This document shows positions 17,205-47,125 of a stretch of 64,000 nucleotides of DNA, piece after piece. This stretch comes from Candidatus Woesebacteria bacterium. Lineage in GTDB: Bacteria > Patescibacteriota > Microgenomatia > UBA8517. Made by a program: the position numbers and the translations under genes. Numbering within the stretch: position 1 is the stretch's first letter; every line of letters begins with the position of its first letter. The notes below the pieces were generated by a model. That model worked only from the letters and a program-made list of their open reading frames with translations, had not been told where the DNA came from and did no database searches. The stretch covers positions 628,549 to 692,548 of the forward strand of contig CP058602.1 of the NCBI GenBank assembly GCA_013426185.1, written 5' to 3'.

Positions 17205-18299
17205 ATGAAACTTCAGGTTGTGCAAGAAGACTTTAAGAAAGCTGTTATTATTGCTTCTCGCTTTTCGAGCGCAAGGCCACAAATTCCAGTTTTGTCTAAT
17301 TTACTACTTTCAACAAGTAATAATAATTTAACTATCTCTGCTACCAATTTGGAAATATCTATTAATTTTAAAATAGGAGCAAAGGTGGAAGAAAAAGGTG
17401 ATATTACAGTTCCTGCAAAGTCTTTGGCTGAGATAGTGAGTAATTTAAATCCGGGTGTAATTAAATTAAAATCAGAAAAGGAACAACTAACTCTTGAAGC
17501 TGAAAATTTTAAATCAAAACTTTTGGGAATAAATGCTTCTGAATTTCCCAAAGTTCCAAAAGAGATGACAGGTAGTATGATCGAGATTCCGTTTGGTTCT
17601 TTAGTCCAATCTTTGTCTAAAGTTGTCTTTGCCTCCTCATATGATGAAACAAGGCCTGTTTTGACGGGAATACTTTTAATGCTTGATGAAGGTAAATTAA
17701 GTTTGGTGGCAACTGATGGTTACCGACTTTCTGTTTCTCAAATAGAAGGAAAATATCAAAGCGATGTTAAGAAATTAATAGTTCCAAAATTTATTTTTAA
17801 CGAGATTCCAAGAATTGCAACAGGCGAGAATATAATTTTTTCTTTTGATACTAAAAACAGTCTGGTTCTTTTTAAAACTAAAGAGGCGATTTTATCATCT
17901 CGTGTTATTGAAGGTGTGTATCCTGATTTTCAAAAAATAATCCCCAAAAGTTTTAAAACAAAAGTTTTGATTGATAAAGATGATTTTTTGCGCTTGATTA
18001 AGCTTTCGTCTGTCTTTGCTCGAGATTCTGGTAATGTAATTAAAATTTCAATTAAAAATAATTTGTTGGATGTTTTTGCTGAAAGCCAATATTCTGGTTC
18101 ACAAAAAAGCTCGGCTGAAGCAAAAGTTGAGGGTGATGATGTAGAAATTGCTTTCAATTACAAATTTTTAGAAGATTTCTTGAATTCAGTATCAGGCGAG
18201 ACTGTTTCTCTTGAGTTGAATGACTCAAGTTCTCCTGTTGTTTTTAAAGATACTTCTGATAAAAATTATCTTCACTTAATAATGCCGGTTAAAATTTAA
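17205..18299 (+). CDS. dnaN: DNA polymerase III beta sliding clamp
   Basis: N-terminus MKLQVVQEDFKKAVIIASRFS… and three-domain length typical of DnaN. Position after dnaA. Confidence 0.85.
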   Translation: MKLQVVQEDFKKAVIIASRFSSARPQIPVLSNLLLSTSNNNLTISATNLEISINFKIGAKVEEKGDITVPAKSLAEIVSNLNPGVIKLKSEKEQLTLEAENFKSKLLGINASEFPKVPKEMTGSMIEIPFGSLVQSLSKVVFASSYDETRPVLTGILLMLDEGKLSLVATDGYRLSVSQIEGKYQSDVKKLIVPKFIFNEIPRIATGENIIFSFDTKNSLVLFKTKEAILSSRVIEGVYPDFQKIIPKSFKTKVLIDKDDFLRLIKLSSVFARDSGNVIKISIKNNLLDVFAESQYSGSQKSSAEAKVEGDDVEIAFNYKFLEDFLNSVSGETVSLELNDSSSPVVFKDTSDKNYLHLIMPVKI

Positions 18300-19327
18300 A
18301 ATTGATTTTTTGAAGACGCGTCAAGGTAAAGTAGTGCTTTAACTTCTTTTGTATCTTTAGTCTTGGCCCATCCAGTTAATATAAAGACTGGTGGTAAAGT
18401 ATTGTTTCTTGAGTTATTTTCTAATAGGTATGCTAGTTCTATTTTTTCTACTCTGATTGATTGTATAAAGTCGTTTTCGATATCTGGTATGTTGATATTA
18501 CCTTCGTCTAGACTTATGAGAACCGACTGATTTATGTTTTCTAGAATTTCTTTGTAATCCTTAATTTTTACTTTACCGATGTTGCTAATACTTACGTCGT
18601 TTATTAGGTTAATTTCCGAGTTTAGAATGTTTCCATCCTTAAGCACTTGAACATAATATAAAAATTGTATGGGGGCGGGGTTAAGGATGATAATGTTGTT
18701 GATTTTTTGAGAAAAATTTACTTGGTATATTTGAAAATTATCTTCTTTTGCTTCGGTAAAGGTTTCTTTCTCTTTTTCTAGTTTTAACAAGGTTGTGCTT
18801 GTGTAATATATTTTGTCTTCAGGGATATTTATTTTTTCTTTTAAAAAGTTTTTGGCAATTGCAACGACATCTTCGTTTTTAAGTTGCTTGTTGGGAGCTG
18901 TTTTTATCTCTTCTTCAGGATTGTGATTAGGTGAATACTTAATTTTTCTGTTTTTAAGGTTTATTGTTAAATCATAATTATCACCGTTCCATATGAGTAT
19001 TTTTCCTTCCTCTATGTCGTCAAATTCTTTGGGGCTTTTCGTAAAACCAAGGCTGGAGGCAATTTTTTGGGCATCATCTTTTGAAAGAGGGTTTTGTTTT
19101 TTTACAAGGTATGGCACTTCTTTTGGAAAGGAAAAATCTTTTTCATTAATATTAAATGTTATAGTAAAGTTTGCTTTTTTGGAATCACTTGGATAACTGA
19201 TTTTAGGAGAAATATATTCTTTTTTTGTTTTTTCTTTGTTTTTTCCATTTAGTATAACAATAGCAAAAACAACAAGAGATATTACTAGTAATGCGAATAT
19301 AATAATTTTTGTTTTTTTTGTTTTCAT
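18296..19327 (-). CDS. Hypothetical exported/membrane-anchored protein (first gene of minus-strand T4SS-like cluster, or its last)
   Basis: N-terminal signal anchor KIIIFALLVISLVVFAIVIL. No recognisable motif. Tightly packed with 19337..22318. Confidence 0.5.
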   Translation of the reverse strand: MKTKKTKIIIFALLVISLVVFAIVILNGKNKEKTKKEYISPKISYPSDSKKANFTITFNINEKDFSFPKEVPYLVKKQNPLSKDDAQKIASSLGFTKSPKEFDDIEEGKILIWNGDNYDLTINLKNRKIKYSPNHNPEEEIKTAPNKQLKNEDVVAIAKNFLKEKINIPEDKIYYTSTTLLKLEKEKETFTEAKEDNFQIYQVNFSQKINNIIILNPAPIQFLYYVQVLKDGNILNSEINLINDVSISNIGKVKIKDYKEILENINQSVLISLDEGNINIPDIENDFIQSIRVEKIELAYLLENNSRNNTLPPVFILTGWAKTKDTKEVKALLYLDASSKNQF

Positions 19328-19336
19328 TTTTGGTCC

Positions 19337-22318
19337 TTAAGGTATATTACCACAGTTATTGCTGCACCCGTAAGGTACGTGCTTGGGTATATATGGAACG
19401 TCCATTTTTATATTTTGTCTAAATTCATAATGCAAATGGGGTCCTGTACCATCAGAACCGCTTAGACCTATTATTTGTCCCTTGATTACTTTTTGCCCTG
19501 TTGATACTGATGATGCTGATAGGTGAGCATATCTTGTGATAATTGTTTTGCCGTTACAGGTTGACTCAACGTCTATATAAAGAGGTCTATAGGCGTTACT
19601 AGTTCTTACAACAGTTGCTGTACCCGAGTGCGTGGATATTATAGAATGACCGGTGGTAGCGGCTATGTCTATTGCCTCAACCAGTAAGTGACTAAATATT
19701 CCGCGTGGCCCTTGTGTTATCCTAAGACTCGTCTCCCCGCCCTCTGGCATTATTGGCCAACCACTAGGACATTCTTCTGGAGGATTACCTATTTTGATGG
19801 ATGCAGATCCGGCGCTTGAGACGCTTTCTCCCTCGGCATTTGTAGCAGAAACAGTTATTGTATCTATAGTAAGCGTGTCCTCAAACTGAGGCGAGGTAAA
19901 AGTTTTTTTATAGGTGAAGGTGTAAGGTGATGCTGAGTCTATTGTGCCTATATTGCTACCATTTGGTATTGCTGGATTTGGGTTTGGACAGCTTGGTATG
20001 TTATTCTTTTTTGTTACGTTACAGGTTTCGCTTATTGATATATTTGTTAGAGAACCTTTTTTTGCCTTTATTGTTATTTCGTATGTTATCTCAAGAGGGA
20101 GTTGGTTGTTTTCAAAAGAAAGTTCACTGCTTTTTCCTTTTTCTGGATATTTTTCTGAATAAGCTAGTTTTGCAACTTCTATATATTCGTTTACAACAGC
20201 TCCTGGCCCTAAAGATGCCATTTTTGTTGAAGGAGGATAAACATAAGCTCCAGAATTGATAATAAAAAGAATTATGGCAACAAGAATTGGTATGCCAATA
20301 AAGACAATAAGCATAGGAATAACAAGAGAAGCTAAAACTATATTAGTCAAAGCAAAAAATAGACCTCCCAGAAAAGCACCTATTGATGCAGCTCTTGAGA
20401 CGCTTATTACACCTACTCCGGCAACAAGGTAAAGAGGAGCACCTGTTAAAGCAAATGCTCCTACAAGAATTCCTGCTAGAATGAAAGTAAGTTTGTCTTG
20501 ATTTTTCTTAAGCCAAACTTTTATGAGACTCGCTAGATCCTTAAGCGATAATAGAGCTGTTACTGCTGATATTACTTGTCCAATAGCGGGGATAACGTTT
20601 GCGGCAAGAGCGGCCCCTAGTTTGGTGGCAGCGGCCTTGGCGGCGATTTTGGTGGCGACCTTCGAGCCTAGTTTTGCAGTCATTCCGCTGATAGCTGTGT
20701 TTAATTTGGCAACAGCGGGAATTTTATTTATGAGCTTGTCGAAGGCAAAGTTGAGTATAGGAGAAGACAAAATGTTTGGTGACGAGAAACTGCCAAAATT
20801 TAAAGAAATTGCAATAGGCAGAGATTGTCCTTGTGTGGAAATACCTATGGTGGCAAGTTGTGTGTCTAGCCAGCCGGTGCTAACAGTTACTACTTGCCCT
20901 TGGGGGGGTGGCAATTTTTTACCGGTGATAAAGCTAAAAGCTCGTGTAGCAGAGGAAACTTTGCCCGCTACTTTTTTAATTTCAGTCTCAAGACGAGCTT
21001 TTTCTGGTTTACTTAGCTGATTGTATGTTTTTTCATCTAAAATAGCATTTTTAATTTGCTTTTCCAAAGTTTGAAAGGAGACAACTTGTTCTAAAAATTC
21101 AGTTAAATTTACATTTATTCCTCCTTCTGGTATTTTCCCTTCCGGCGCAGCTTCAAGTTTTCTTATTTGAGGAGGAATAAAAAAGGGCGACCAGTCTTGG
21201 CCGAATGCTTGATTAACAAAATTAGTGGCAATAGTAGAGTCTTTTTCTAGAGAGTATAGGGCTTCAAGAGATATTCTACTAATTTCCTCTCTTGCTTTTG
21301 CGTCAGGTATTATTTTTGCTAGTTCTTCATTTTTTGGATTAGCAAAGAAAGCTAGTGTTTCAAAAGGCGAAGAATCAATAGTTATTTTTGGGTCTTTAGG
21401 ATCAATGTTTAATAATTTTAGGGTGAAAGTTTTTGCGACGATTTCAGCAGATTCTGTTTCTAAAGGATTTTCAGGATTTAATTTTGATGTTTCTATAATC
21501 CTTTCTTTTAGTTGGTCGGCAAAATTTTGTGGATCTTGGTGAGCTAATTTAACTATTTCCAGTTGTTCTTTGCTTAGTTTTATTGTTGGTTCAGGGAGAG
21601 GAGAGTAGAGATTTGTTTCTAGTGATTTTGTCTCTGTTTTTTTAATTTCAACTTCCTCTCTTTTTAATATTGACCCTACTCTTTTTAGTAGAGTTTTGCT
21701 TGAATTGGTTTTTGCTATTGTTGTTTCTGGTGTTTTTTGGAAAGGTAATATGTTAGGATTAAGAGTTTCTTTCTGAACTGCTGTTGTTTCTTTAGACAGG
21801 ATGCTTTCAGTAGGTTTAATTGAATTTGGCTGTGATGTTGATTGTTCTTGGGTTTTTGCTTGAGGGATTTTGGGTGTAGTTGTTTCTAAAATGTTAGTAG
21901 TATCTGTATCTTCTTTTACAGAAGTTTTTTCCGAAGATTTTGGTTGTTCTTTTCCTTGTGCTTTTGTAGATGAATCTTTAGCCTGGGGTATTACTGGTAG
22001 TGCTTCTTTTTTTTGTCCTGAGGCTTTTTCGTACAATGTAACTAAGTCTTCTATATTGACAGGTACTGTTGAATAGACTTCTTCTCCGCGATCTAAGGCA
22101 ATTTTCCATCCCCTTACAATTTGTATCGCGTCTTGAATACTTTCGGCTTGGGTTGCTTCTAGAAGTTTTTGTTCAAAAGTTTCTTTGTTTTGTCCAGAAT
22201 AAAAAACTGCGGGAGCAACTTTTTGATCTTCTGGATAAAATTGGTCTGGAAAGAAAGCAACACATCCGTTGTACAAGAAATCAACAACTTCTTTGCTTAG
22301 TTCGTATTTTTCTGTCAT
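19337..22318 (-). CDS. Large multidomain protein with central TM block and C-terminal M23 (LytM-type) peptidoglycan endopeptidase domain
   Basis: C-terminal M23 motifs (…LVEAIDIAATTGHSIISTHSG… and GSDGTGPHLHYEF). 3-4 hydrophobic helices near residues 560-660. T/S/P/K-rich linker region. Confidence 0.7.
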   Translation of the reverse strand: MTEKYELSKEVVDFLYNGCVAFFPDQFYPEDQKVAPAVFYSGQNKETFEQKLLEATQAESIQDAIQIVRGWKIALDRGEEVYSTVPVNIEDLVTLYEKASGQKKEALPVIPQAKDSSTKAQGKEQPKSSEKTSVKEDTDTTNILETTTPKIPQAKTQEQSTSQPNSIKPTESILSKETTAVQKETLNPNILPFQKTPETTIAKTNSSKTLLKRVGSILKREEVEIKKTETKSLETNLYSPLPEPTIKLSKEQLEIVKLAHQDPQNFADQLKERIIETSKLNPENPLETESAEIVAKTFTLKLLNIDPKDPKITIDSSPFETLAFFANPKNEELAKIIPDAKAREEISRISLEALYSLEKDSTIATNFVNQAFGQDWSPFFIPPQIRKLEAAPEGKIPEGGINVNLTEFLEQVVSFQTLEKQIKNAILDEKTYNQLSKPEKARLETEIKKVAGKVSSATRAFSFITGKKLPPPQGQVVTVSTGWLDTQLATIGISTQGQSLPIAISLNFGSFSSPNILSSPILNFAFDKLINKIPAVAKLNTAISGMTAKLGSKVATKIAAKAAATKLGAALAANVIPAIGQVISAVTALLSLKDLASLIKVWLKKNQDKLTFILAGILVGAFALTGAPLYLVAGVGVISVSRAASIGAFLGGLFFALTNIVLASLVIPMLIVFIGIPILVAIILFIINSGAYVYPPSTKMASLGPGAVVNEYIEVAKLAYSEKYPEKGKSSELSFENNQLPLEITYEITIKAKKGSLTNISISETCNVTKKNNIPSCPNPNPAIPNGSNIGTIDSASPYTFTYKKTFTSPQFEDTLTIDTITVSATNAEGESVSSAGSASIKIGNPPEECPSGWPIMPEGGETSLRITQGPRGIFSHLLVEAIDIAATTGHSIISTHSGTATVVRTSNAYRPLYIDVESTCNGKTIITRYAHLSASSVSTGQKVIKGQIIGLSGSDGTGPHLHYEFRQNIKMDVPYIPKHVPYGCSNNCGNIP

Positions 22319-22320
22319 CT

Positions 22321-24300
22321 TTATTGAATAATATCAGTTTTAATAGATATTTTTGGTTGCTCTTGTTGTGTCTGATTAAGTGCCACGTCACTTTTATTTG
22401 ATAATTCTATTGGGTTACTGGTTATAAGTTGATGTTCCTCAGGTGAAGCAACTACTCTAATAGGAGCATGGTGCGGGCCGGCGAAGAAGATTCCCTCTCC
22501 AACATTGGCTGAAAGCAAGAGCTGCTTTTCTCCTTGTGAGAGATAAAAAACTTCACCCACGCGGTCTATAGCAGTTGGCGATTGTTTTAATAGGACTCTT
22601 AGGGCGCTGTTTGTTACAATGGCTTTACCAATATCTTGAGAAAGGAAATCTTCTACATCTTGAGTAATAGTTGTTAATCCTAGGAAGTATTTTCTTGCTC
22701 TTTTAACAACGCTCCATAAAAACTGGGCTGAATCTTCATATCTCATCATATGCCAGGCTTCGTCAACAATTAGAATTCTTCTTTTGAGGTTTCTTTGTAC
22801 ACGAGTCCAAATAAAATCAAGAATCATAAACATAGCAATAGGGCGAAGAGCCTCTTGCATATCTTTAACTGAAAAAACTGTAAAGGGATTATTGATGTCT
22901 ATATTTGTTTGTTTGTCGAAAATGCCCACAAAACTTCCTTTGACAAATCTTTCTATTCTTGAAGCAAGATCAAGCGCATCTTGAGTTTCCATACCAATTA
23001 ATGTTTTATAAAGATCTTCCATAAGGGGGGGTTCTTTTTTTTGGGTACTAGGATCTTGGGTTATACCCTTTGCGTGGTATGTTGCCACTATGGCGCGGTC
23101 AAGAAGGGCTTCTTTGATAGGGTCAAGCTTCCCCATAATAACTTTAAAGAATGAATGCAGAGTGAGAATTTTTAAGCCTAGTTGATTTTCTCCCTCTGTG
23201 TAAACTTGAGAGAGATCAAAAGGATTAATCTTTGAGGGAGAGTTGAAAGAAAAGGAAATATATTCTCCTCCTACCGCCTCGCAAAGAGGTTTGTATTCTG
23301 CTTCAGGATCAAGAATGATTACTTCGGTTCCAAGCATTAAACTTCTAACAGACTCTAGTTTTACAAAGTATGATTTTCCTGCTCCAGAAGTTGCAAAAAT
23401 TGTCATATTTGAATTTTCAAGAGAAAATCGGTCAAAGATAATAAATGAGCCGTTTTGTGAATTAATGCCATATAAAACACCTTCATCTGATGAAAGTTCA
23501 GCTGATGTTAAAGGAAAGGTAGTAGCAAGAGAGGTTGAATCCATGTTGCGGGTTATTGCTAGTTTGTTAAAGCCGAAGGGAACTGTGGTTAAAAAGCCAT
23601 TTTCCATATCAAGTGTTGCTTTTTTGGCGATAATCATCAACGAGCCAAGGGTTGACTCTACCTGTTTTGTAATATGATCTAATTCTTCTATGGTCGCAGC
23701 TGGTATGGTTATGTAAAATGCAAACTCAAAAAATCTTTCAGCACCTTTTACTAATTGTTCTTGGAGGGTAAGAGCGTCCTCAAGTTTTGCCTGGGTGTTG
23801 GGATCAATTACCTTACCTCTTTCGATATCGGTTGCAATTTCAGCTTCCATTTCAGTAATTTTTCTTCGCAAATCGTCAAGAACACTTTTCCCTTCGATAG
23901 GATAGATATAGAAGGAAATATCAAGAGAATTATTAAAGTTAATTATGGGTTCAAGCCAACCTGGGCTGACAAAGCGTGGATAACCTGAAACAAAGATAGT
24001 TCGAAAATAAGTGTCGTTGATTTTAATATAATCAAAGTCGGTTTCAATAATTTTGGGAGCGATAGCATCAATCAATTCGACCTTTTTGGTAAAAATATCA
24101 ATACTGGGATTACTTATTTCCGGCTTTTCCTCAGTTGATTTTACCGTTGAATCCAAATTTAAATCTTTTACACTATTTTCTTTATTCTCGACTGGTTGAA
24201 GATTGTTTGGTCCATAAGTAGGCTCTGGCGTTTGATAGAGAACTTCTTGATTATCTTTTTTTGTTTCTTCTTTGTTTTTTTTCTTTAAGATGTTAAACAT
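22321..24300 (-). CDS. VirB4/TrbE/CagE-family type IV secretion ATPase (ATPase body)
   Basis: Walker A FATSGAGKSYFVK. Walker B RILIVDEAWHMM. Conserved TQ motif (LTTITQD). Start taken as the internal MFNILKK methionine rather than the 24366 start that overlaps the upstream ORF. Confidence 0.75.
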   Translation of the reverse strand: MFNILKKKNKEETKKDNQEVLYQTPEPTYGPNNLQPVENKENSVKDLNLDSTVKSTEEKPEISNPSIDIFTKKVELIDAIAPKIIETDFDYIKINDTYFRTIFVSGYPRFVSPGWLEPIINFNNSLDISFYIYPIEGKSVLDDLRRKITEMEAEIATDIERGKVIDPNTQAKLEDALTLQEQLVKGAERFFEFAFYITIPAATIEELDHITKQVESTLGSLMIIAKKATLDMENGFLTTVPFGFNKLAITRNMDSTSLATTFPLTSAELSSDEGVLYGINSQNGSFIIFDRFSLENSNMTIFATSGAGKSYFVKLESVRSLMLGTEVIILDPEAEYKPLCEAVGGEYISFSFNSPSKINPFDLSQVYTEGENQLGLKILTLHSFFKVIMGKLDPIKEALLDRAIVATYHAKGITQDPSTQKKEPPLMEDLYKTLIGMETQDALDLASRIERFVKGSFVGIFDKQTNIDINNPFTVFSVKDMQEALRPIAMFMILDFIWTRVQRNLKRRILIVDEAWHMMRYEDSAQFLWSVVKRARKYFLGLTTITQDVEDFLSQDIGKAIVTNSALRVLLKQSPTAIDRVGEVFYLSQGEKQLLLSANVGEGIFFAGPHHAPIRVVASPEEHQLITSNPIELSNKSDVALNQTQQEQPKISIKTDIIQ

Positions 24301-26084: not shown

Positions 26085-26459
26085 TTATATCTTTTCTCTT
26101 GCCCTTTTTCTTGATCCATATAATAATTTTTTGTTCTCAACAATTAGATTTGATACCTCGTTAAAATCATCTTTTCCTATATATTTTAATTCCAGAGATA
26201 TATCAATTAAGACTTCAAGCTCAGTCAAAGAGCCTATTGAGATCGTAAGGAACCTTGAATATTCTTTAGGTTTTTCTTTTATATAACCTTCTACAATATT
26301 GGCAACGACTGATATTGCTGCCCTTCTTATTTGAGGAACAAGGCAGTAAAATTCTTCTTTGGGATAGGAATTTGTGAGGCGGTATATCATTAGAACTAAT
26401 TGTTTTGCTTTTTGATAGGAAATTAATTTCTGATAACTTGTCTTTTGTTGTTTTTCCAT
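26085..26459 (-). CDS. Four-helix-bundle protein (23S rRNA intervening-sequence protein family)
   Basis: Signature YQKAKQLVLMIYRLTNSYPKEEFYCLVPQIRRAAISVVANIVEGY. Flanked on both sides by inverted gtaaaag/ttaaaag-type repeats. Confidence 0.75.
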   Translation of the reverse strand: MEKQQKTSYQKLISYQKAKQLVLMIYRLTNSYPKEEFYCLVPQIRRAAISVVANIVEGYIKEKPKEYSRFLTISIGSLTELEVLIDISLELKYIGKDDFNEVSNLIVENKKLLYGSRKRAREKI

Positions 26460-30070: not shown

Positions 30071-30136
30071 TTTTTAAAAAGTGTCCTACCTTTTATTTTA
30101 GAGCGATTTTGGTCTTAAAGGCAATAGGCAGTTGGT

Positions 30137-30652
30137 TCAGGGATTTTTATTTTCGCAAAAACTTAGACCATAATTTTTTCCTGCATATTCTGGATTAGCA
30201 TAACTTGGTGTTGTGATATTTACTTTAAGGTAGCAAGCTTCTTGTTGACTAATTTTCAATTTATCAAGCAATGCTTTTTCGGCTTCAGTTCTAATTTCAT
30301 CAAACGGAGAACTGAGTATAGATATAAGAAATGAATTATCAACAGGAATATACATTATTTGGTAATCCTTTTTATCGATAAATTTAGCAAAACCATCCTT
30401 TTTAATTTCAGTTGCTTCTCTATAAAAATTGTTGACCTCTATCCCTGAAATTTTTATTTTTGGCGACTCTTGATCAATTTTTGTTTCCAAATCTTTTGGC
30501 AAAAAGGGGGAAGTTGTGGGTTGTATGGTTTTTTGGGGCTCGGTAATTTCGCTTTTGGGATAGGGAATAAAAATTCCTATTAAAGCAAAAACAGCTACAG
30601 CGAGAAAAGAAAAGATCAGAATTTTGTTTTTGTCAATTTTTTTTATGGGCAT
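30137..30652 (-). CDS. Small bitopic membrane protein (N-terminal TM anchor plus ~140-aa external domain), candidate VirB8-like component
   Basis: Anchor ILIFSFLAVAVFALIGIFIPY. Size and topology fit VirB8-type proteins. No sequence motif confirmed. Confidence 0.35.
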   Translation of the reverse strand: MPIKKIDKNKILIFSFLAVAVFALIGIFIPYPKSEITEPQKTIQPTTSPFLPKDLETKIDQESPKIKISGIEVNNFYREATEIKKDGFAKFIDKKDYQIMYIPVDNSFLISILSSPFDEIRTEAEKALLDKLKISQQEACYLKVNITTPSYANPEYAGKNYGLSFCENKNP

Positions 30653-32985
30653 TTTGATATATCAAGGCCACAAGCTTTAGCTGCGTTTATCCATGGGCAC
30701 CAAGGGCTGTATCCTCTACTTTTCAAGTCTTTTGTCAAAGCAACAGCCTTTTGTATATTATTGGTAGGATCAAAAAACATATTAGCGCATTCAATTACTC
30801 TGTCCTTGTCCTTAATTGTACACATTGGTCGATTTTTATCAAAGGGTGTTCCACCGTCACAGTGTGCCAAAAGGTTTATTTGAAAAAGTCCGATACTGTA
30901 GTCAAAACTACTACCGCTTAAACATCCACAATTGATGGCGTCTGGGTTGCCACCACTTTCAGTGTTGCAAATACAAGACGCGGCTGCAGCATCACCTGGG
31001 TCAAAAAACTGGCTAAGATATGATTGACTACAGTATCCTCCTCCAGGAACAGCCCCACTTGGAGAGCCGCTGTTTCCTGCAGGTGAAGAAGTACAAAGAC
31101 CGGTTGGGTCTGTTCCGCCACCACTTTGTAATTCTTGCCCGACAGAGGCAATGGATTTTTCGCTACAGGCTGATGGTATCCCTCCTATTTCAATACCTCC
31201 TATGAAAGGAATCCAGCCTGGGAGTCTTATTCCTTTTGTGCAAGCGACAATTTGGTCGTGACGATCTTGTCTTGCTCTTGGCGTTACTTCATTGGCTCTG
31301 CCTGTTAGCTGAGTTGCTGGCCTTTGCGAGTTAAGAGTGTTGATTTTGATTTTGTTTTTCCACTGAATTTCTTGAGGCAAGAGCTTGTTTAGTGGACCTG
31401 AAAACGTTGTTATTCTTTTTAGATCTGCTTCCTCTTTGTGGCTTAAAGGGTCGTCTTCGGCTCTATAGAGCGTGCCGTTTAAGTACCAGCTTAGGTATTC
31501 ATTTGCGCGGTCGGCTTCGGGAATCTTCTGGCCTGTGGTTAGACCAGCTGGTGCTCCCCCAAACTCTTTAGGCCTTAGAGCAGTCTGGATGCCCAGTAGG
31601 AAATAGTCATATATGCCTCCGAGGTGGGGAAAATAAAGCTGGGGGTTTTGGGTAGAAAGGTTGGCTCCGTCGCCATTAATATTATATTCTACATTTGAGG
31701 ACGCGGGGATGTCTTTTATTTTTTCATAAGGAGAGTTGGGGCTTGTTTTTGGCATTATTCTCCTGAAAATGGACGAGTTGCCAGCAGTTGTTTTGCTCCA
31801 AATTTCATCTACAAGAGGGGTGAAAGTTTCAACCTGAGCTGATAGTTCTGCTGTATTTGTGCATTCTCCTCTGAGGGAACAAAAACCGGAAGAGCAGTCC
31901 CATACTGCTGGACAATCAAAAGAAGCTGTATATGTTATTTTGGCAGCAGGTGCGCCTGTTGACTTTTGAGCTCTTTTGTCTATTTGTTCCCCAAACAATT
32001 GATCTCCGGGGTTATAGCGCGATTCTAGAATAGTGCACCCTGATTGCTGCCTTACAGCATTAATATCGCCAGCTTTGATGCTTTGAGCTTGTCTGTTGTC
32101 TAGATTTTCTTTTGGGGCGAATGTGGATTGTAACAGTGTTGTTAGTTCTACCCCTTCCTCAAGGTGGGGAAAATAAAGGACGCCCTCTCTTGTGGTAGTG
32201 TTTTTGGTCCTCGGGTCGTCTGATTTTTGTTTCCATTCTGTTCTTAAGTTTTTTATCTCAAAATTGGTTGAGGGCATGGAGCTAAAGTCAGACAATCTTA
32301 TTTTGCCGATTCTATCTTCGGTGGAGGAATAGGGTATGTATGGAAAAAGCGCGGCCCAGAAATCTGGCTGGAGGGGGTTGTTAAAGCAGAACAGAATCTT
32401 GAAACCAATTATTGGTATAGTTACCTCTGCGCAGGTTTTACCTCTCCATTCCTGGTATGCTGCATAATAGTCTTTCAGATTTGAATATCGAGAGGGGTCT
32501 GGTGGCAAACGGTCTTTCCATTCTGCTAGTCTTTTCTCGTTTTCTCCAAGAGACGATGTTTTTCCCCGAGGAACAAGTTCCGTGTTGCCTGCTATTGGCA
32601 GTTCGGAATTAAAAGCATTGACCGAAATCTCGACCTCCTTTGGAACGTTGCAATGGCAGGTAGTGTTTGAATTCCCTGAAGCGGCTTGAGGGGGGTCGCA
32701 TCGGCAATGGGAACTGTTAACATTGGTTGTAAAGGTTTGCCTTATGACGAAATCTTTTCCACAAAGCAGAGATTGCTCTTCATCCTTGATGGGTACTTGG
32801 CAGGGGCTTGCTTGATAAGGCCTTAAAGAGTGCCACTCTGGTTTTTTGGTTTGATCGCAGGGAACGTAGGGTTCGGGAATTGGGGCAGGGTTGGTAGCGT
32901 AGACTTTTTGGGTAGAAGATAGAAAAGCTAATAGGAAAAAGAGAGAAAAAACAAAACTAAGTCTTTTTTTGAATAAACCTGGCAT
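30643..32985 (-). CDS. Secreted cysteine-rich 780-aa protein with C-terminal GH23/SLT-type lytic transglycosylase domain (VirB1-like function)
   Basis: Signal peptide LSFVFSLFFLLAFLSSTQKVYA. Many Cys. C-terminal CICNTESGGNPDAIN…SIGLFQIN matches the SLT catalytic ES…GLMQI signature. Confidence 0.6.
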   Translation of the reverse strand: MPGLFKKRLSFVFSLFFLLAFLSSTQKVYATNPAPIPEPYVPCDQTKKPEWHSLRPYQASPCQVPIKDEEQSLLCGKDFVIRQTFTTNVNSSHCRCDPPQAASGNSNTTCHCNVPKEVEISVNAFNSELPIAGNTELVPRGKTSSLGENEKRLAEWKDRLPPDPSRYSNLKDYYAAYQEWRGKTCAEVTIPIIGFKILFCFNNPLQPDFWAALFPYIPYSSTEDRIGKIRLSDFSSMPSTNFEIKNLRTEWKQKSDDPRTKNTTTREGVLYFPHLEEGVELTTLLQSTFAPKENLDNRQAQSIKAGDINAVRQQSGCTILESRYNPGDQLFGEQIDKRAQKSTGAPAAKITYTASFDCPAVWDCSSGFCSLRGECTNTAELSAQVETFTPLVDEIWSKTTAGNSSIFRRIMPKTSPNSPYEKIKDIPASSNVEYNINGDGANLSTQNPQLYFPHLGGIYDYFLLGIQTALRPKEFGGAPAGLTTGQKIPEADRANEYLSWYLNGTLYRAEDDPLSHKEEADLKRITTFSGPLNKLLPQEIQWKNKIKINTLNSQRPATQLTGRANEVTPRARQDRHDQIVACTKGIRLPGWIPFIGGIEIGGIPSACSEKSIASVGQELQSGGGTDPTGLCTSSPAGNSGSPSGAVPGGGYCSQSYLSQFFDPGDAAAASCICNTESGGNPDAINCGCLSGSSFDYSIGLFQINLLAHCDGGTPFDKNRPMCTIKDKDRVIECANMFFDPTNNIQKAVALTKDLKSRGYSPWCPWINAAKACGLDISKCP

Positions 32986-33027
32986 TTGTTATGATTTTAA
33001 AGCTAAAACGTGAGGAAGTAAAGCTTG

Positions 33028-33330
33028 TTATTCCTGATAGATGATTTTGAATTGGGTAACGTCTACTCCTGTGAATTGATAAATTAACTTAAGTATTAAA
33101 AAAGACATTGCAAGAAGTACGATGCCAAAGATGGCGTAAGTTATGGTTTTTTTTGCTGCTTCTGCTTGCTGAGGGTTGCCTCCTGCAGTTATATAGTTAA
33201 ATCCGCCAACAATAAGCATTATAAAGAGGACTATTCCTGCAAATTCAAGCGCTACTTTTACTATGTTTCCAAAATAAGTTTCAATGTCTGATAGCTTTGC
33301 TGGTGGTTCTGCTGTTGTTGTTGATTCCAT
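33028..33330 (-). CDS. Pilin-like small membrane protein, paralogue 1 of 8 (VirB2/TrbC-like two-helix architecture)
   Basis: Shared motif ITAGGNPQQAEAAKKTITYAIFGIVLL between two hydrophobic helices. Confidence 0.55.
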   Translation of the reverse strand: MESTTTAEPPAKLSDIETYFGNIVKVALEFAGIVLFIMLIVGGFNYITAGGNPQQAEAAKKTITYAIFGIVLLAMSFLILKLIYQFTGVDVTQFKIIYQE

Positions 33331-33377
33331 CAGAGACGATTATAGCAAAAGCAGTAAAAAAAAAGAAGCTTGAGACT

Positions 33378-33773
33378 TTATTGATTAACAGTAGGAATCT
33401 GAAGGTTAAAAATGTTAACACCAAAGAAGGTTCCAATTAAGCCAGCTATTGCCCAAGCGGCAAAGACAATAACCAAGCCAACCAAGGCAGCAGTAATTTG
33501 AGCTCTAGCTTGTTCTGTTTGACCTTTATCGCCACCCGAGATAATCCAACGTATTCCGCCGATTACCAAAATAAAGAAGAAAACAATTGCTGCAATAACC
33601 AAAGCCAGTTTTAGAAGACCCGCAATAATACCTCCTATGGTTAGGTTAGCGACAGTTCCAGCTAACTGGTCGTTTGTTGGTTTTAAGTTTATTGTATTTC
33701 CTTGAGCCAAGACTTCTAGAGCTAAGCTTTTCATATTTCCCATATTATCTAATTTTTGTATTGTTTTTGTCAA
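33378..33773 (-). CDS. Pilin-like small membrane protein, paralogue 2
   Basis: Motif IISGGDKGQTEQARAQITAALVGLVIV. Two hydrophobic helices. Confidence 0.55.
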   Translation of the reverse strand: MTKTIQKLDNMGNMKSLALEVLAQGNTINLKPTNDQLAGTVANLTIGGIIAGLLKLALVIAAIVFFFILVIGGIRWIISGGDKGQTEQARAQITAALVGLVIVFAAWAIAGLIGTFFGVNIFNLQIPTVNQ

Positions 33774-33775
33774 GA

Positions 33776-34146
33776 GGGGAATTGGTCGAAGCTAATCGGA
33801 AGACTGTATTTAGTATTTTGTATTATGTATTATGGGAAATCCAAGTAGTAAGTAGAACGTAGTAAGTAGAAAGCAAAATTAATAAATAGTTAAAAGTTCA
33901 AAGTGCAAAATTCAAAGTTGGAATTTATTTGTTTGGAATTTGTAATTTGGAATTTGCCTGCCCTGAACCGAATTTATTCTGGTTCAGGGTTTAGAATTTA
34001 GATATTAGAATTTAGGATTTGGACCTTGTAATTTGGAGCTTGGAATTTGTTTGTAATTTGTATATTGGAATTTGTGATTTAATTCTATAATCTATAATCC
34101 AAAATCTATAATCTAATCATCAAGTTTTGATTTTGAGTTAATCCGT
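33776..34146. repeat. Dispersed AT-rich repeat family, copy R2 (inverted copy of R1; same orientation as R3)
   Basis: Matches the reverse complement of 6640..6900 over ~280 bp. Contains the perfect 9-bp-stem hairpin ccctgaacc(n13)ggttcaggg at 33962..33990. Confidence 0.7.
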
Positions 34147-34148
34147 CT

Positions 34149-34472
34149 CTATTCAAGAAAATTTATCCTTAATTCTAGAAGTTTAATTCCAAAGAAGTTC
34201 TCAAGTATATAAATTATAGCGAAAAGAGAAAGAAGAATGACTAGTCCAATGACAGCGTTGGTTATTTTGCTTTTTGCTGATTCGATGGCTGCTTTATCTC
34301 CTCCTGAAATAATCCATTGAATAGCGCCCACAATAATTATGGCTACGAAGATAATGGCGCCAACAATAAAACTTAGACTGATTAAATTTGGCAAGAGCTT
34401 GTTAAAAAACTCAGTTCCTGAAAGGTTTCTGACACCTTCTCCTAGAGCTGGATTTTTAATACCTTGGTCCAT
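34149..34472 (-). CDS. Pilin-like small membrane protein, paralogue 3
   Basis: Motif IISGGDKAAIESAKSKITNAVIGLVIL. Confidence 0.55.
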   Translation of the reverse strand: MDQGIKNPALGEGVRNLSGTEFFNKLLPNLISLSFIVGAIIFVAIIIVGAIQWIISGGDKAAIESAKSKITNAVIGLVILLSLFAIIYILENFFGIKLLELRINFLE

Positions 34473-34475
34473 AAG

Positions 34476-34856
34476 TTATTTCCAAATGTTTTCAACAAAC
34501 TGAGCTGGATTGAGAATTAGGCTAATACCCAAGATTTTTCCCACCAGTTCGATCAGAAAGATGGAAGCGACAACAACGACAAGACCTATAAGAGCGTTAA
34601 ATATTCTTTTTCTGGCTGATTCAAGAGCTCCTTTGTCTCCACCTGATGAGATCATTGCAATTGCACCTGAAACGAAAACAAAAATAAACCAGAGCCCAGC
34701 GACAATAGTTAAAACACCTATAACTCCTGAAATGAAGGAGTTAAAAATGGTTGGGGCAGTTTCAGGGTTGCTTTGTTCAAGACCCAGCCTGCCAAAGCCC
34801 TTAAAGCCCTCATTTGGCGAAAGCGGTATGTCTGCAGCAATTAGTTTTGAGATCAT
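34476..34856 (-). CDS. Pilin-like small membrane protein, paralogue 4
   Basis: Motif ISSGGDKGALESARKRIFNALIGLVVV. Confidence 0.55.
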   Translation of the reverse strand: MISKLIAADIPLSPNEGFKGFGRLGLEQSNPETAPTIFNSFISGVIGVLTIVAGLWFIFVFVSGAIAMISSGGDKGALESARKRIFNALIGLVVVVASIFLIELVGKILGISLILNPAQFVENIWK

Positions 34857-35188
34857 AGGCTTGGAATTTTAGGTCTAAGCAAGAAAAAGTAATCGTTGAA
34901 AACCAATTTTCCAAAAATAGCTGCCAAAACAAAAGAGCCAGCTGCAACAGCAAGGCCTAAAAGTGTTTGCCAAATTTTTGCCCAAGCACTTGCTACTTTT
35001 TTAGGATCATCGCTTGCTGAAATGAAAGCATAACCGGCTAGAATTAAATTAATCAAAGCATAAATGCCGGCAATGATTATTAAAGTTCTGAGAATTAAGT
35101 CCAAAAGCTTGCCTATAGCTCCACTTTCAACCGAGCCAAACTTGCTGATTGCTTCAGGTGAATTTATTGGTCCAAAGACTTGTAACAT
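34853..35188 (-). CDS. Pilin-like small membrane protein, paralogue 5
   Basis: Motif ISASDDPKKVASAWAKIWQTLLGLAVA. Confidence 0.5.
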   Translation of the reverse strand: MLQVFGPINSPEAISKFGSVESGAIGKLLDLILRTLIIIAGIYALINLILAGYAFISASDDPKKVASAWAKIWQTLLGLAVAAGSFVLAAIFGKLVFNDYFFLLRPKIPSL

Positions 35189-35192
35189 AAGA

Positions 35193-35513
35193 CTAAATTG
35201 TCGGCTGGGTAATAAAATTGTTACCAGTTATTATTTCAATAATTCTTATTACCCAGTACGCTCCAAATATTATTATAAACCCTATTATAGCAGTTGTGAC
35301 AGCTTTTTTCCCTTTTTCAATTTTTTGAGGATCGGAGGAGCCCGCGCCTGAAATTAGAGAGATTCCGGCGAAGATAAAAAGAAACAAGATTATTATGCCA
35401 CTAACAGCAAAAGATGCGTTTAAGATTAGTGTTATGAGGTCTCCTATTCCTTTGGTGTTGCCAAAAGGAGAACCAAAAGTACTTCCTATGTCAATTGCTA
35501 AGCTTTTCATCAT
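35193..35513 (-). CDS. Pilin-like small membrane protein, paralogue 6
   Basis: Motif ISGAGSSDPQKIEKGKKAVTTAIIGFIII. Confidence 0.5.
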   Translation of the reverse strand: MMKSLAIDIGSTFGSPFGNTKGIGDLITLILNASFAVSGIIILFLFIFAGISLISGAGSSDPQKIEKGKKAVTTAIIGFIIIFGAYWVIRIIEIITGNNFITQPTI

Positions 35514-35830
35514 TATTGGAACGTTTGTCTTATTTTATCAAGTCCTAAAACAGCAGCTACTATCTGCACAATCCAGTAGGATGCAAAAATTATAACAAAA
35601 CCAATTAGAGCTTGGGTAATTTTGCTTTGTGCTTCCTGCGCTTTTTTAGGATCGCCTGCTGAAGTTAAATACTGAAACCCGCCAAGAATCAGGTAGATGA
35701 GAAGAAGAATTCCGGCGACAGCAAAAATGTATTTTAAAGATTCACCAACTATTGTACCCACATTTCCACCCGCAAACTTGAGTCCGATACTGCCTTCTAA
35801 TTGTTGATAATTAACTTGAGCTAGGTTCAT
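35513..35830 (-). CDS. Pilin-like small membrane protein, paralogue 7
   Basis: Motif LTSAGDPKKAQEAQSKITQALIGFVIIF. Confidence 0.55.
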   Translation of the reverse strand: MNLAQVNYQQLEGSIGLKFAGGNVGTIVGESLKYIFAVAGILLLIYLILGGFQYLTSAGDPKKAQEAQSKITQALIGFVIIFASYWIVQIVAAVLGLDKIRQTFQ

Positions 35831-35835
35831 AGTTT

Positions 35836-36375
35836 TTACGATAAACCTGGAATCTTAAGTATACTAACTCCAATTACTCTTAAAATAAAAACAGAAAAAA
35901 TCAAAAGGATTAATCCCATTATAGCCGAACTTAGAAGTTCTTTTCCTGCCTGAAGCCTTTTAGGGTCTCCTTGCGATGTCATAATTTGAAATGAGGCGAT
36001 AATAATTAAGATAAAAGCTATTCCTCCTGCAATACCAATCGCCCATTTAAGTATAAATTCTATCATTCCCTGCTGCTCAATTGGGATACAACCAATGGCG
36101 GTATCAATACAGTCGCCTTTTAGGGCAGAGATACCAGCAGCAGGATTGGCAACCCCTCTTGGTAGGGGTACTATGGTCGAATTGGGGTCGTCTTGACAAT
36201 AGCCATTTACACAGATCAAGCCAGTTTGACAGGAGTCGGGCGGGCCTCCAGCTAAGTTGCAGCATCTCTCCCCAATTAGACCGCATTGAATTGGAGATTG
36301 TGCTGAAACTTTTCCTTGCGCCAGGGACAACAAAAGAAATAAGCTGGCAAGGAAGGTAATTATATTTTTTCTCAT
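35836..36375 (-). CDS. Pilin-like protein, paralogue 8, with added N-terminal signal peptide and 8-Cys-rich ectodomain (candidate minor or tip pilin)
   Basis: Signal peptide, then CGLIGERCCNLAGGPPDSCQTGLICVNGYCQ, then the family motif MTSQGDPKRLQAGKELLSSAIMGLILLIF. Confidence 0.55.
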   Translation of the reverse strand: MRKNIITFLASLFLLLSLAQGKVSAQSPIQCGLIGERCCNLAGGPPDSCQTGLICVNGYCQDDPNSTIVPLPRGVANPAAGISALKGDCIDTAIGCIPIEQQGMIEFILKWAIGIAGGIAFILIIIASFQIMTSQGDPKRLQAGKELLSSAIMGLILLIFSVFILRVIGVSILKIPGLS

Positions 36376-47121: not shown

Positions 47122-47125
47122 CCAG

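What the first reader, a model, noticed from the sequence alone, without database searches (positions are those of the whole stretch)
18296..36375. An 18-kb minus-strand cluster that looks like a T4SS/pilus apparatus, with no coupling protein or relaxase, sitting beside the chromosomal origin
All of these genes are co-oriented and tightly packed. They include a VirB4-family ATPase (Walker A/B and TQ motif) and a VirB3-like protein. They include a VirB6-like polytopic protein and a bitopic VirB8-sized protein. Two distinct cell-wall hydrolase modules are present, a C-terminal M23 peptidase and a C-terminal SLT lytic transglycosylase. Eight tandem pilin-like paralogues complete the set. There is no VirD4-like coupling ATPase, no relaxase and no oriT-like feature anywhere in the window. 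The cluster starts only 0.1 kb from dnaN. That placement and content argue for a chromosomally fixed surface filament or translocation machine, for example host attachment or DNA uptake in an episymbiont, rather than a conjugative element. Several components (18296..19327, 26545..28449, 30137..30652) have no recognisable homology.
Basis: partly seen in the sequence, partly recalled or inferred. Interest (0 to 1): 0.8.

Follow-up and report, generated by a model that had tools for sequence, protein, structure and literature searches.

The report
Patescibacterial type IV secretion/pilus gene cluster
This is the chromosomal, origin-adjacent type IV secretion and pilus gene cluster typical of ultrasmall Patescibacteria (here a Woesebacteria genome); it is real, but the system has been described in papers from 2023 and 2025.

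Summary
The cluster is real. It holds a VirB4 ATPase (NCBIfam CD1110 family, above cutoff), a TrsD-like protein, a PrgI/VirB3-like protein, an M23 peptidase protein, a lysozyme-like protein and eight PF18895 VirB2-like pilins. Its 3' end overlaps the stop of dnaN, next to a DnaA-box cluster. No relaxase, coupling ATPase or second T4SS ATPase lies in the 64 kb.

Three corrections. The gene at 26545-28449 is on the plus strand. The 'VirB6-like' protein has only membrane topology and position in its favour. The 171-aa 'VirB8-sized' protein does not model as a VirB8 (NTF2-like) fold.

The window comes from a Candidatus Woesebacteria genome (class Microgenomatia). The order pilins-hydrolase-polytopic protein-PrgI-TrsD-VirB4-M23-dnaN-dnaA recurs in 49 of 54 related loci, so this is a fixed chromosomal machine, not an ICE.

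Side observations not mentioned in PMC12102498, the survey I checked: a large, soluble, hypervariable, convergently oriented gene always follows the polytopic gene (37/37 loci), and the surface-exposed parts are recombination mosaics between strains.

The parts
18296..19327 (-). 343-aa protein with an N-terminal membrane anchor and no known domain. Last gene of the cluster; its stop overlaps the dnaN stop.
   Evidence: No Pfam, NCBIfam, PHROG or PDB-sequence hit. Single N-terminal TM segment. Profile-detected homologues in 19 related loci, downstream of VirB4 next to dnaN in several (e.g. L012, L026) but upstream of VirB4 in others. No similarity to TcpC by hhalign. Structure not predicted.
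19337..22318 (-). 993-aa protein: hydrophilic N-terminal part, TM cluster at about 568-696, C-terminal M23 metallopeptidase. VirB1-type wall hydrolase directly downstream of VirB4.
   Evidence: Peptidase_M23 6e-18 at residues 882-969. TM scan. HxH motif kept; the first motif is an atypical [ST]H-x3-EAID that is conserved in relatives. A 1050-aa M23 protein occupies the same position in the Pontibacillus cluster.
22321..24366 (-). VirB4-family ATPase. The probable start is the ATG at 24300; the longest ORF begins with TTG at 24366.
   Evidence: Pfam hits. NF045971 CD1110 family, 392.9 bits against a 325 cutoff. Walker A ATSGAGKS. 56-85% identical to VirB4 of 80 Microgenomatia loci. 37% identical to the best plasmid hit.
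24293..25003 (-). 236-aa TrsD-like protein, equivalent to the N-terminal domain of long VirB4 proteins.
   Evidence: NF041427 TrsD at E 7e-6, and a match to residues 103-254 of the Mbov_0397 VirB4 model at E 1.4e-9. 30% identical (E 1e-28) to the gene just upstream of VirB4 in Pontibacillus. Found in 71 of 80 loci.
24990..26042 (-). 350-aa PrgI/VirB3-like membrane protein with a Pro/Gln-rich linker and a C-terminal CarboxypepD_reg-like beta-sandwich.
   Evidence: PrgI 27.3 bits (gathering score 27); CarboxypepD_reg 3e-7. Hydrophobic (TM) region at residues 47-70. E 3e-9 to the 116-aa Pontibacillus gene in the same position. Found in 67 of 80 loci.
26085..26459 (-). 124-aa 23S_rRNA_IVP (four-helix bundle, bAvd-like) protein. 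An accessory passenger, not a T4SS component.
   Evidence: PF05635 6.8e-31. Present in only 9 of 80 loci. Replaced by a 36%-identical variant in the close strain L084. No TR/VR-type repeats nearby.
26572..28449 (+). 625-aa soluble, mostly alpha-helical orphan protein on the opposite strand, convergent with the polytopic gene (the 'slot gene'). The longest ORF starts with GTG at 26545.
   Evidence: No Pfam, NCBIfam, PHROG, PADLOC or PDB hit. No TM segment. AF2 model is poor (pLDDT 59) and has no fold match. A large opposite-strand ORF occupies this position in 37 of 37 loci.
28469..30070 (-). 533-aa polytopic membrane protein (signal peptide plus about 6 TM segments). Positional and topological candidate for the VirB6 role.
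   Evidence: TM scan. Family of 3223 representatives at E<=1e-3. No Pfam or NCBIfam hit in 34 members. hhalign probability 1-2% against TcpH and the Pontibacillus polytopic protein.
30137..30652 (-). 171-aa bitopic accessory protein with a small extracellular alpha/beta domain. Not VirB8-like.
30643..32985 (-). 780-aa secreted protein: a conserved ~635-aa N-terminal region of unknown fold plus a C-terminal lysozyme/SLT-like domain.
   Evidence: SLT_3 9.5e-6. Lysozyme C catalytic-region alignment TESGGN...GLFQIN. N-terminal hydrophobic segment consistent with a signal peptide. The C-terminal domain is swapped in L084 while the N-terminal 635 aa stay 72% identical.
33028..33773 (-). Two VirB2-like pilin genes: 33028-33330, and 33378-33773 (whose start is probably downstream of the TTG).
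   Evidence: PF18895 4e-11 and 9e-10. Two TM helices each. An 11/12 sigma-70-like promoter at 33773-33744 overlaps the TTG start.
33774..34148 (.). 375-bp non-coding spacer inside the pilin array. It is a dispersed repeat built from 7-nt tandem repeats around the hairpin CCCTGAACC-N11-GGTTCAGGG.
   Evidence: No ORF. TRF heptamer arrays. An 83% copy at window 6566-6900 and partial copies at about 52113-52646 and 56576-56674. No Rfam family.
34149..36375 (-). Six further VirB2-like pilin genes: 34149-34472, 34476-34856, 34853-35188, 35193-35513, 35513-35830 and 35836-36375. The last has a signal peptide and a Cys-rich N-terminal extension.
   Evidence: PF18895 hits at E 1.4e-8 to 4.8e-3. Gaps or overlaps of -4 to +5 nt. 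Paralogue identity is 21-38%, whereas each orthologue is 67-88% identical in L001 and 81-94% in L084/L085.
16918..17061 (.). DnaA-box cluster in the dnaA-dnaN spacer (context: the replication origin).
   Evidence: Six TTATCCACA-like boxes with at most 1 mismatch. GC-skew turn.

Best explanation
This is the chromosomally fixed type IV secretion/pilus system of Patescibacteria, here in a Candidatus Woesebacteria (Microgenomatia) genome. It derives from the monoderm MPF_FATA conjugation machinery but is no longer a conjugative element.

Shown here: the gene set, its homologies, its conserved position beside oriC, and the lack of relaxase, coupling ATPase or integration signatures in the window.

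Inferred mechanism:
- The VirB4 hexamer, together with its split-off N-terminal domain (the TrsD-like protein), docks on the PrgI/VirB3-like protein and the 533-aa polytopic protein to form a cytoplasmic-membrane translocon.
- The M23 endopeptidase and the lysozyme-like protein open peptidoglycan.
- VirB4 extracts the two-helix VirB2-like pilins from the membrane and polymerises them into an extracellular tube that contacts the host cell.
- By analogy with Southlakia epibionticum, where the homologous cluster and its pilin array are essential for epibiotic growth, the machine most likely mediates host contact and macromolecule exchange. Its substrate and direction of transport are unknown.
- Each of the eight pilin paralogues is individually conserved across species. 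This suggests a filament built from distinct, non-redundant subunits (or major and minor subunits) rather than interchangeable antigenic variants.
For: - Component homologies.
- Taxon: 279 VirB4 relatives, the best 80 in Woesebacteria/Microgenomates/Patescibacteria MAGs at 56-85% identity. The best plasmid hit is 37% identical and from Bacillota.
- The same core order (pilin-like, polytopic, PrgI-like, TrsD-like, VirB4, M23) occurs in a Pontibacillus replicon.
- Synteny with dnaN/dnaA holds in 49 of 54 loci, and is convergent as here in 44.
- VirB4 (85%) and several pilins (up to 88%) are as conserved against the closest complete genome as dnaA (75%) and yidC (70%).
- No relaxase, coupling protein or other T4SS ATPase lies in the window. 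No flanking repeats.
- Pilin orthologues are 67-94% identical, against 21-38% between paralogues.
- Literature: PMC12102498, PMC10633639, PMC12857230. A 2026 preprint reports tubular structures that may be T4SS pili at a Patescibacteria-host interface.
Against: - No experiment exists for any Microgenomatia member. Function is extrapolated from one Saccharibacterium.
- The channel protein has no detectable VirB6 homology.
- No VirB8-like component was found.
- A coupling protein may exist elsewhere in the genome; I could not search it.
- VirB4 placement in the Patescibacteria clade rests on similarity, not on a tree.
Confidence: 0.85

Rival explanations
1. It is an integrative conjugative element, or a decaying one, that happens to sit next to dnaN. 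Its relaxase and coupling protein would be encoded elsewhere or be too divergent to recognise.
For: - The VirB4 belongs to a family typical of conjugative elements of Bacillota.
- A large serine recombinase lies at 48958-50334, beside tRNA genes.
- Cluster GC (0.36-0.41) is slightly above that of the left flank (0.30-0.33).
- Mosaic recombination occurs within the locus.
Against: - The same position and orientation beside dnaN-dnaA-rnpA-yidC hold in 49 of 54 loci, across VirB4 identities from 56 to 85%.
- No relaxase, T4CP or att-like repeats.
- The recombinase is 12.6 kb beyond the cluster end. SpoIID, an MFS transporter and tmRNA lie between them, and the recombinase belongs to a separate R-M/OLD island.
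- PMC12102498 finds relaxases in only 103 of 3035 Patescibacteria genomes.
Confidence: 0.04
2. It is a DNA (or nucleic-acid) import machine, like Helicobacter ComB or the archaeal Ced system. The pilus and VirB4 would pull host nucleic acid into a cell that cannot make nucleotides.
For: - No coupling protein or relaxase in the window, as in ComB.
- VirB4 has weak matches to CedB (1.2e-14) and CedD.
- PMC12102498 notes T4SS genes next to comF/recG/radA in class ABY1.
- A 2026 preprint links VirB4 with macromolecule transfer and RNA-based parasitism.
Against: - In S. epibionticum, as summarised in PMC12857230, transformation depends on comEC. Deleting comEC abolishes competence but not viability, while the T4SS is essential.
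- The CedB scores are far below cutoff (53.9 against 700 bits).
- No competence genes lie in this window.
Confidence: 0.15
3. It is only an adhesive filament: a pilus-assembly machine with no substrate translocation.
For: - Eight conserved pilins, one with a Cys-rich N-terminal extension.
- Exposed components are recombination mosaics between strains, as expected for host-recognition surfaces.
- No coupling ATPase in the window.
Against: - Patescibacteria already use type IV pili for adhesion (PMC12857230).
- Two wall hydrolases and a large polytopic channel-type protein are kept.
- A conserved soluble partner gene is embedded in the cluster.
Confidence: 0.1

Closest known systems
Patescibacteria-clade T4SS (Quinonero-Coronel et al. 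2025, PMC12102498; S. epibionticum SEML1_0006-0019, Wang et al. 2023, PMC10633639)
   Same: - VirB4 of MPF_FATA ancestry, with an adjacent TrsD-like gene and a PrgI/VirB3 gene.
- Wall hydrolases directly downstream of virB4.
- An array of divergent PF18895 pilins (2-11 reported; 8 here, at 21-38% identity).
- No relaxase.
- Location beside dnaA/dnaN/rnpA, reported as typical for Microgenomatia.
   Different: - In S. epibionticum the pilins are on the opposite strand to the rest. Here they are on the same strand as the rest.
- S. epibionticum has a protein with a DPAM-assigned NTF2-like (VirB8-type) domain and a TrbL/VirB6-like fold hit. Here neither could be detected.
- This Woesebacteria layout has a convergent orphan gene between the polytopic gene and PrgI.
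Monoderm conjugative T4SS, MPF_FATA class (CTn2/CD1110 type; pCF10 Prg/Pcf; pCW3 Tcp)
   Same: - VirB4 passes the CD1110-family model.
- PrgI, TrsD and large multi-domain wall hydrolases are present.
- There are no outer-membrane core components.
   Different: - No relaxase, T4CP (VirD4/TcpA) or oriT context. The locus is chromosomally fixed.
- It carries VirB2-like pilins, which these conjugative systems generally lack.
- No detectable TcpH/PrgH (VirB6) or TcpC/PrgL (VirB8) homologue.
Pontibacillus sp. ALD_SL1 898-kb replicon cluster (NZ_CP062975, 351-361 kb) and Mycoplasma ICE Mbov_0395/0397 families
   Same: - Same core order: pilin-like gene, large polytopic gene, PrgI-like, TrsD-like (30% identity), VirB4 (37% identity), roughly 1000-aa M23 protein.
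- The last pilin weakly matches the Mbov_0395 pilin-like model.
   Different: - One pilin-like gene instead of eight.
- No dnaA/dnaN context; flagellar genes are adjacent.
- The polytopic proteins show no detectable similarity.
T4CP-less T4SS-derived machines (Helicobacter ComB DNA uptake; archaeal Ced DNA import; Bordetella Ptl)
   Same: They work without a coupling protein and relaxase. They are chromosomal and are not conjugative.
   Different: ComB and Ptl are diderm MPF_T systems with VirB7/9/10. The Ced scores here are far below cutoff. There is no evidence for the substrate here.

Membership tests
Type IV secretion system (VirB4-defined superfamily) | VirB4-family ATPase with N-terminal CagE/TrbE/VirB domain and Walker A/B P-loop domain | tested here: met
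   Pfam P-loop_TraG 6e-32 and CagE_TrbE_VirB 3.8e-5. NF045971 scores 392.9 bits against a 325 cutoff. Walker A ATSGAGKS. The Walker B motif (LIVDEAW) and the TITQD motif were read directly from the translation.
Patescibacteria-clade T4SS (PMC12102498) | VirB4 belongs to the Patescibacteria clade nested in MPF_FATA | tested here: met
   This is a similarity proxy only; no tree was built. The best model is the MPF_FATA CD1110 family. Identity is 56-85% to 80 Woesebacteria/Microgenomates loci, against at most 37% to any plasmid VirB4.
Patescibacteria-clade T4SS (PMC12102498) | TrsD-like and PrgI/VirB3-like genes adjacent to virB4 | tested here: met
   TrsD at E 7e-6 (below the NCBIfam cutoff), plus a match to the N-terminal part of the VirB4 model at 1.4e-9 and E 1e-28 to the Pontibacillus neighbour. 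PrgI scores 27.3 bits against a gathering score of 27.
Patescibacteria-clade T4SS (PMC12102498) | Array of VirB2-like pilins (PF18895) near virB4 | tested here: met
   All eight ORFs hit PF18895, six of them above the gathering score. Each has a two-helix hairpin. Paralogue identity is 21-38%, as reported for such arrays.
Patescibacteria-clade T4SS (PMC12102498) | No relaxase near virB4; chromosomal location near dnaA/dnaN | tested here: met
   No relaxase domain among 40 ORFs. dnaN abuts the cluster. The arrangement is conserved in 49 of 54 loci.
Patescibacteria-clade T4SS (PMC12102498) | Required for epibiotic growth on a host | not testable with these tools
   Shown only for S. epibionticum by Tn-seq.
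Conjugative element (ICE or plasmid) | Relaxase and type IV coupling protein (VirD4/TcpA) | tested here: not met
   None in the 64-kb window. The rest of the genome could not be searched.
Conjugative element (ICE or plasmid) | Integrase at the border, flanking direct repeats, variable insertion site among relatives | tested here: not met
   No flanking repeats. The only recombinase is 12.6 kb away, in a separate island next to tRNAs. The position is fixed in relatives.
VirB6/TrbL/PrgH/TcpH family (for 28469-30070) | Sequence-profile match to a VirB6-type family | tested here: not met
   No Pfam or NCBIfam hit for the protein or for 33 homologues. No PDB sequence hit. hhalign probability is 1-2% against TcpH and the Pontibacillus polytopic protein; these tests used single-sequence targets, so sensitivity was limited.
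VirB6/TrbL/PrgH/TcpH family (for 28469-30070) | Polytopic membrane protein with five or more TM helices encoded in the T4SS cluster | tested here: met
   Signal peptide plus about 6 hydrophobic segments. Conserved position in 37 loci.
VirB8/PrgL/TcpC/TraM family (for 30137-30652) | Bitopic protein whose extracytoplasmic domain has an NTF2-like fold | tested here: not met
VirB8/PrgL/TcpC/TraM family (for 18296-19327) | Bitopic protein whose extracytoplasmic domain has an NTF2-like fold | tested here: inconclusive
   The protein is bitopic. Profile comparison with TcpC and PDB sequences was negative.
VirB1-type cell-wall hydrolases | Peptidoglycan hydrolase domain with catalytic motifs, encoded in the cluster | tested here: met
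   M23: 6e-18 with HxH retained and a conserved variant of the first motif. Lysozyme-like domain: SLT_3 26.4 bits (gathering score 27), with the catalytic Glu-Ser and GLFQIN motifs aligned to lysozyme C.

The most novel reading that the evidence does not exclude
The convergently oriented, soluble, Pfam-less gene between the polytopic gene and PrgI (26572-28449 here) may be a lineage-specific, rapidly diversifying partner of the Microgenomatia T4SS. It could be a translocated substrate/effector, or a cytoplasmic recruiting factor that stands in for the missing coupling protein.

- Such a gene sits in this slot in 37 of 37 loci, but the genes fall into at least 11 sequence clusters.
- The proteins have acidic N-termini and basic C-termini; the window protein ends in GRRESLRRRIRKEQKRWR.
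- Another metagenome contig shows an abrupt recombination breakpoint after codon ~115.
- Together with the strain-level swapping of the polytopic protein, the hydrolase C-terminal domain and accessory genes, this would make the locus a modular host-specificity cassette.
Probability: 0.2. Interest if true: 0.65.

Novelty: already known. Interest (0 to 1): 0.3.

Why it matters
The Patescibacteria T4SS is of real interest. It is the first T4SS shown to be essential for its owner, and apparently the only pilus-forming one in monoderm bacteria. Its substrate is unknown.

This window adds only another, uncultivated, example of the published Microgenomatia arrangement, so the finding as stated teaches nothing new.

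What could matter are the by-products. A universally placed but hypervariable soluble gene inside the cluster, and cassette-like recombination of the exposed parts, give concrete candidates for the unknown substrate or the host-specificity determinants. They are unproven.

Tried and rejected
- VirB6 homology of the 533-aa protein: Pfam on 34 members, NCBIfam, a PDB profile search, and hhalign against pCW3 TcpH and the Pontibacillus polytopic protein were all negative. A phmmer scan of 1.84 billion representatives showed a large family (3223 hits), but the listed hits were all close relatives, so it gave no bridge to known families.
- DGR idea, prompted by the Avd-like IVP protein: no template/variable repeat pair and no reverse-transcriptase hit among the 40 ORFs scanned.
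- ICE idea: no att-like repeats.
- The intergenic repeat as a known RNA: no Rfam family, and no significant fold (z -1.66).
- AFDB Foldseek was unavailable.

Full report
**What is there**

The interval 18296-36375 holds 19 substantial ORFs. Eighteen are on the minus strand, with gaps or overlaps of a few nucleotides. One, at 26545-28449, is on the plus strand.

Reading in the direction of transcription (from 36375 downward), the genes are:
- six pilin genes;
- a 375-bp spacer;
- two more pilin genes;
- a 780-aa secreted protein with a C-terminal lysozyme/SLT-like domain;
- a 171-aa bitopic protein;
- a 533-aa polytopic protein;
- the convergent plus-strand gene;
- a 124-aa 23S_rRNA_IVP protein;
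- a 350-aa PrgI-like protein;
- a 236-aa TrsD-like protein;
- VirB4;
- a 993-aa protein ending in an M23 peptidase;
- a 343-aa bitopic protein whose stop overlaps the stop of dnaN.

**Component tests: what is confirmed**

- **VirB4.** It hits P-loop_TraG (6e-32) and CagE_TrbE_VirB. It passes the curated NCBIfam model 'VirB4-like conjugal transfer ATPase, CD1110 family' with 392.9 bits against a cutoff of 325.
- **The 236-aa protein.** It matches TrsD (7e-6). It also matches the part of a long mycoplasma VirB4 model that lies N-terminal to the part matched by the VirB4 ORF. It is therefore a split-off N-terminal VirB4 domain.
- **PrgI.** It is just above its gathering score, and the protein carries an extra C-terminal beta-sandwich.
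- **Pilins.** All eight small proteins hit PF18895. Each has two hydrophobic helices.
- **M23 domain.** It keeps the HxH motif. Its first motif is a variant that is conserved in relatives.
- **Lysozyme-like domain.** It keeps the catalytic Glu-Ser and GLFQIN motifs.

**Component tests: what is not confirmed**

- **The polytopic protein.** It has no profile similarity to VirB6-type families in any test. It belongs to a large family of its own, with 3223 cluster representatives.
- **The 343-aa protein.** It remains untested by structure.

**No conjugation module in the window**

Pfam scans of 20 further ORFs show housekeeping genes: LeuRS, L25, YidC, DnaA, DnaN, SpoIID, DnaG and RpoD. They also show a small island with a Tsp45I restriction-modification pair, an OLD-family nuclease and a serine recombinase next to tRNA genes.

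No relaxase or coupling protein appears. VirB4 is the only T4SS-type P-loop protein. No long direct or inverted repeats flank the cluster.

This says nothing about the rest of the genome. The 2025 survey found VirD4-like genes far from virB4 in most Patescibacteria.

**Origin context**

Six DnaA boxes sit in the dnaA-dnaN spacer and two lie upstream of dnaA. The cumulative GC skew turns at 12-16 kb. The cluster is therefore directly beside oriC. It lies on the lagging strand, head-on to replication.

**Taxon and synteny**

A scan of one genome per species found 279 VirB4 relatives. The 80 kept are Woesebacteria, Microgenomates and other Patescibacteria MAGs at 56-85% identity. The closest is the complete genome CP055308.1.

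tblastn of all window proteins against these loci shows the same gene order and orientation, including dnaN-dnaA-rnpA-yidC. Of the 54 loci with at least 7 kb downstream of VirB4, 49 carry dnaN and dnaA, and 44 are convergent as in the window.

Against CP055308.1, VirB4 (85%) and several pilins (up to 88%) are as conserved as DnaA (75%).

Each pilin has its own orthologue: 67-88% identity in L001 and 81-94% in closer strains. Paralogues within the window share only 21-38%. The array is therefore old, and its members are individually maintained.

**Relation to known systems**

The best VirB4 match among 72,556 plasmids is 37% identical. It lies on an 898-kb Pontibacillus replicon.

That locus has the same core order: pilin-like gene, polytopic gene, PrgI-like, TrsD-like, VirB4, and a roughly 1000-aa M23 protein. 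This fits an origin from monoderm MPF_FATA machinery.

The literature already states every main point of the finding:
- A Patescibacteria-specific VirB4 clade nested in MPF_FATA, TrsD/PrgI/VirB2 arrays of 2-11 genes, near-absence of relaxases, and proximity to dnaA/dnaN/rnpA in Microgenomatia and Paceibacteria (PMC12102498).
- Essentiality of the cluster and of its pilins, with no recognisable coupling protein or relaxase, in S. epibionticum (PMC10633639).
- A review treatment of these systems (PMC12857230).

**Mechanism**

I take the machine to be a VirB4-powered membrane translocon. It assembles a VirB2-type tube through a wall opened by its two hydrolases, and it is used at the contact with the host cell. 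The gene content and its conservation are shown here. The assembly model and the role in host interaction are inferred from other T4SSs and from S. epibionticum. The substrate is unknown.

The ICE reading is essentially excluded by the synteny. A ComB/Ced-like uptake role and a purely adhesive role remain possible minority readings.

**Side observations**

1. **A conserved slot with a variable gene.**
   - In all 37 loci that hold both the polytopic gene and PrgI, the gene after the polytopic one is a large (379-1080 aa) ORF on the opposite strand.
   - These proteins fall into at least 11 BLAST clusters. Only two clusters are linked by hhalign.
   - They have no Pfam or PADLOC family, and they lack TM segments.
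   - Their N-termini are acidic and their C-termini basic relative to other ORFs (p 5e-11 and 8e-9; p 0.02 when counted per cluster).
   - PMC12102498 does not mention this gene.

2. **Mosaic recombination between strains.**
   - Metagenome contig L084 is a close strain for VirB4, PrgI, TrsD and the slot gene (94-97.5% amino-acid identity).
   - The same contig has a 48%-identical polytopic protein, no 171-aa gene, a different IVP protein and a swapped hydrolase C-terminal domain.
   - Contig L083 shares 91% nucleotide identity with the slot gene's promoter and first ~115 codons. Similarity then stops abruptly, next to a polytopic gene that is only 37% identical.
   - Exposed parts are thus exchanged as cassettes, while cytoplasmic parts stay fixed.

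3. **The spacer is a dispersed repeat.** The 375-bp spacer in the pilin array has further copies at 6566-6900 and near 52.1-52.6 and 56.6 kb.

**Verdict**

The system is already described. Interest lies only in the side observations, which are preliminary.

Noticed in passing
window 26572-28449 (+); equivalent ORFs in L001-L062, e.g. L003:4218-6815, L009:5449-7728, L062:1316-4558: A large soluble ORF on the opposite strand, convergent with the polytopic gene, occupies the same slot in 37 of 37 related loci. The ORFs fall into at least 11 sequence clusters with no Pfam or PADLOC family. Their N-termini are acidic and their C-termini basic relative to other ORFs. Not mentioned in PMC12102498.
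   Followed up: partly
window 21232-36561 compared with L084 (Ga0101944_10001818) and L083 (Ga0453685_036927): The locus is a recombination mosaic between strains. Nucleotide blocks of 93-97% identity (VirB4, TrsD, PrgI, slot gene) alternate with blocks below 75% or with no match (polytopic gene, 171-aa gene, IVP gene, hydrolase C-terminal domain). Sharp breakpoints lie near 26900 and 28710.
   Followed up: partly
window 33774-34148; copies at 6566-6900, about 52113-52646 and about 56576-56674: A dispersed non-coding repeat of about 340 nt, made of several different 7-nt tandem repeats around the hairpin CCCTGAACC-N11-GGTTCAGGG. One copy splits the pilin array. It matches no Rfam family and is absent from the same spot in L001.
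   Followed up: partly
window 15358-36375: The whole 18-kb cluster lies on the lagging strand directly after oriC, so it is transcribed head-on to replication. This convergent orientation relative to dnaN is kept in 44 of 54 related loci.
   Followed up: partly
window 45197-50411: A small island: a Tsp45I-type restriction enzyme and methylase, an OLD-family ATPase-nuclease, and a large serine recombinase that abuts two tRNA genes. It is separate from the T4SS cluster.
   Followed up: no
window 35836-36375 (-): The first pilin of the array has a signal peptide and a ~70-residue Cys-rich N-terminal extension (CGLIGERCCNLAGGPPDSCQTGLICVNGYC) in front of the pilin hairpin. It may be a tip or minor subunit.
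   Followed up: no
window 26085-26459 (-): A 23S_rRNA_IVP / bAvd-like four-helix protein is embedded in the cluster. It is present in only 9 of 80 loci and is replaced by a 36%-identical variant in a close strain. No reverse transcriptase or TR/VR repeat lies nearby.
   Followed up: partly
L081 (NZ_CP062975.1 351-361 kb, Pontibacillus sp.): A non-mobilizable 898-kb Bacillota replicon carries a relaxase-less cluster with the same core order (Mbov_0395 pilin-like, polytopic, PrgI-like, TrsD-like, VirB4, M23), next to flagellar genes. Pilin-bearing MPF_FATA-type clusters therefore also exist outside Patescibacteria.
   Followed up: partly
window 24990-26042 (-): The PrgI/VirB3-like protein is three times the usual length. 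It has a Pro/Gln-rich linker and a C-terminal CarboxypepD_reg-like beta-sandwich, and this architecture is conserved in relatives.
   Followed up: no
window 19337-22318 (-), residues ~870-970: In the M23 domain of this family, the usual HxxxD zinc motif is replaced by [ST]H-x3-EAID, while HxH is kept. The variant motif is conserved in most related loci where the domain was detected.
   Followed up: partly
window 40981-41344 (-): A tmRNA gene (Rfam 153.6 bits) lies between the T4SS side and the restriction-modification island. Seven tRNA genes lie at 50230-56791.
   Followed up: no
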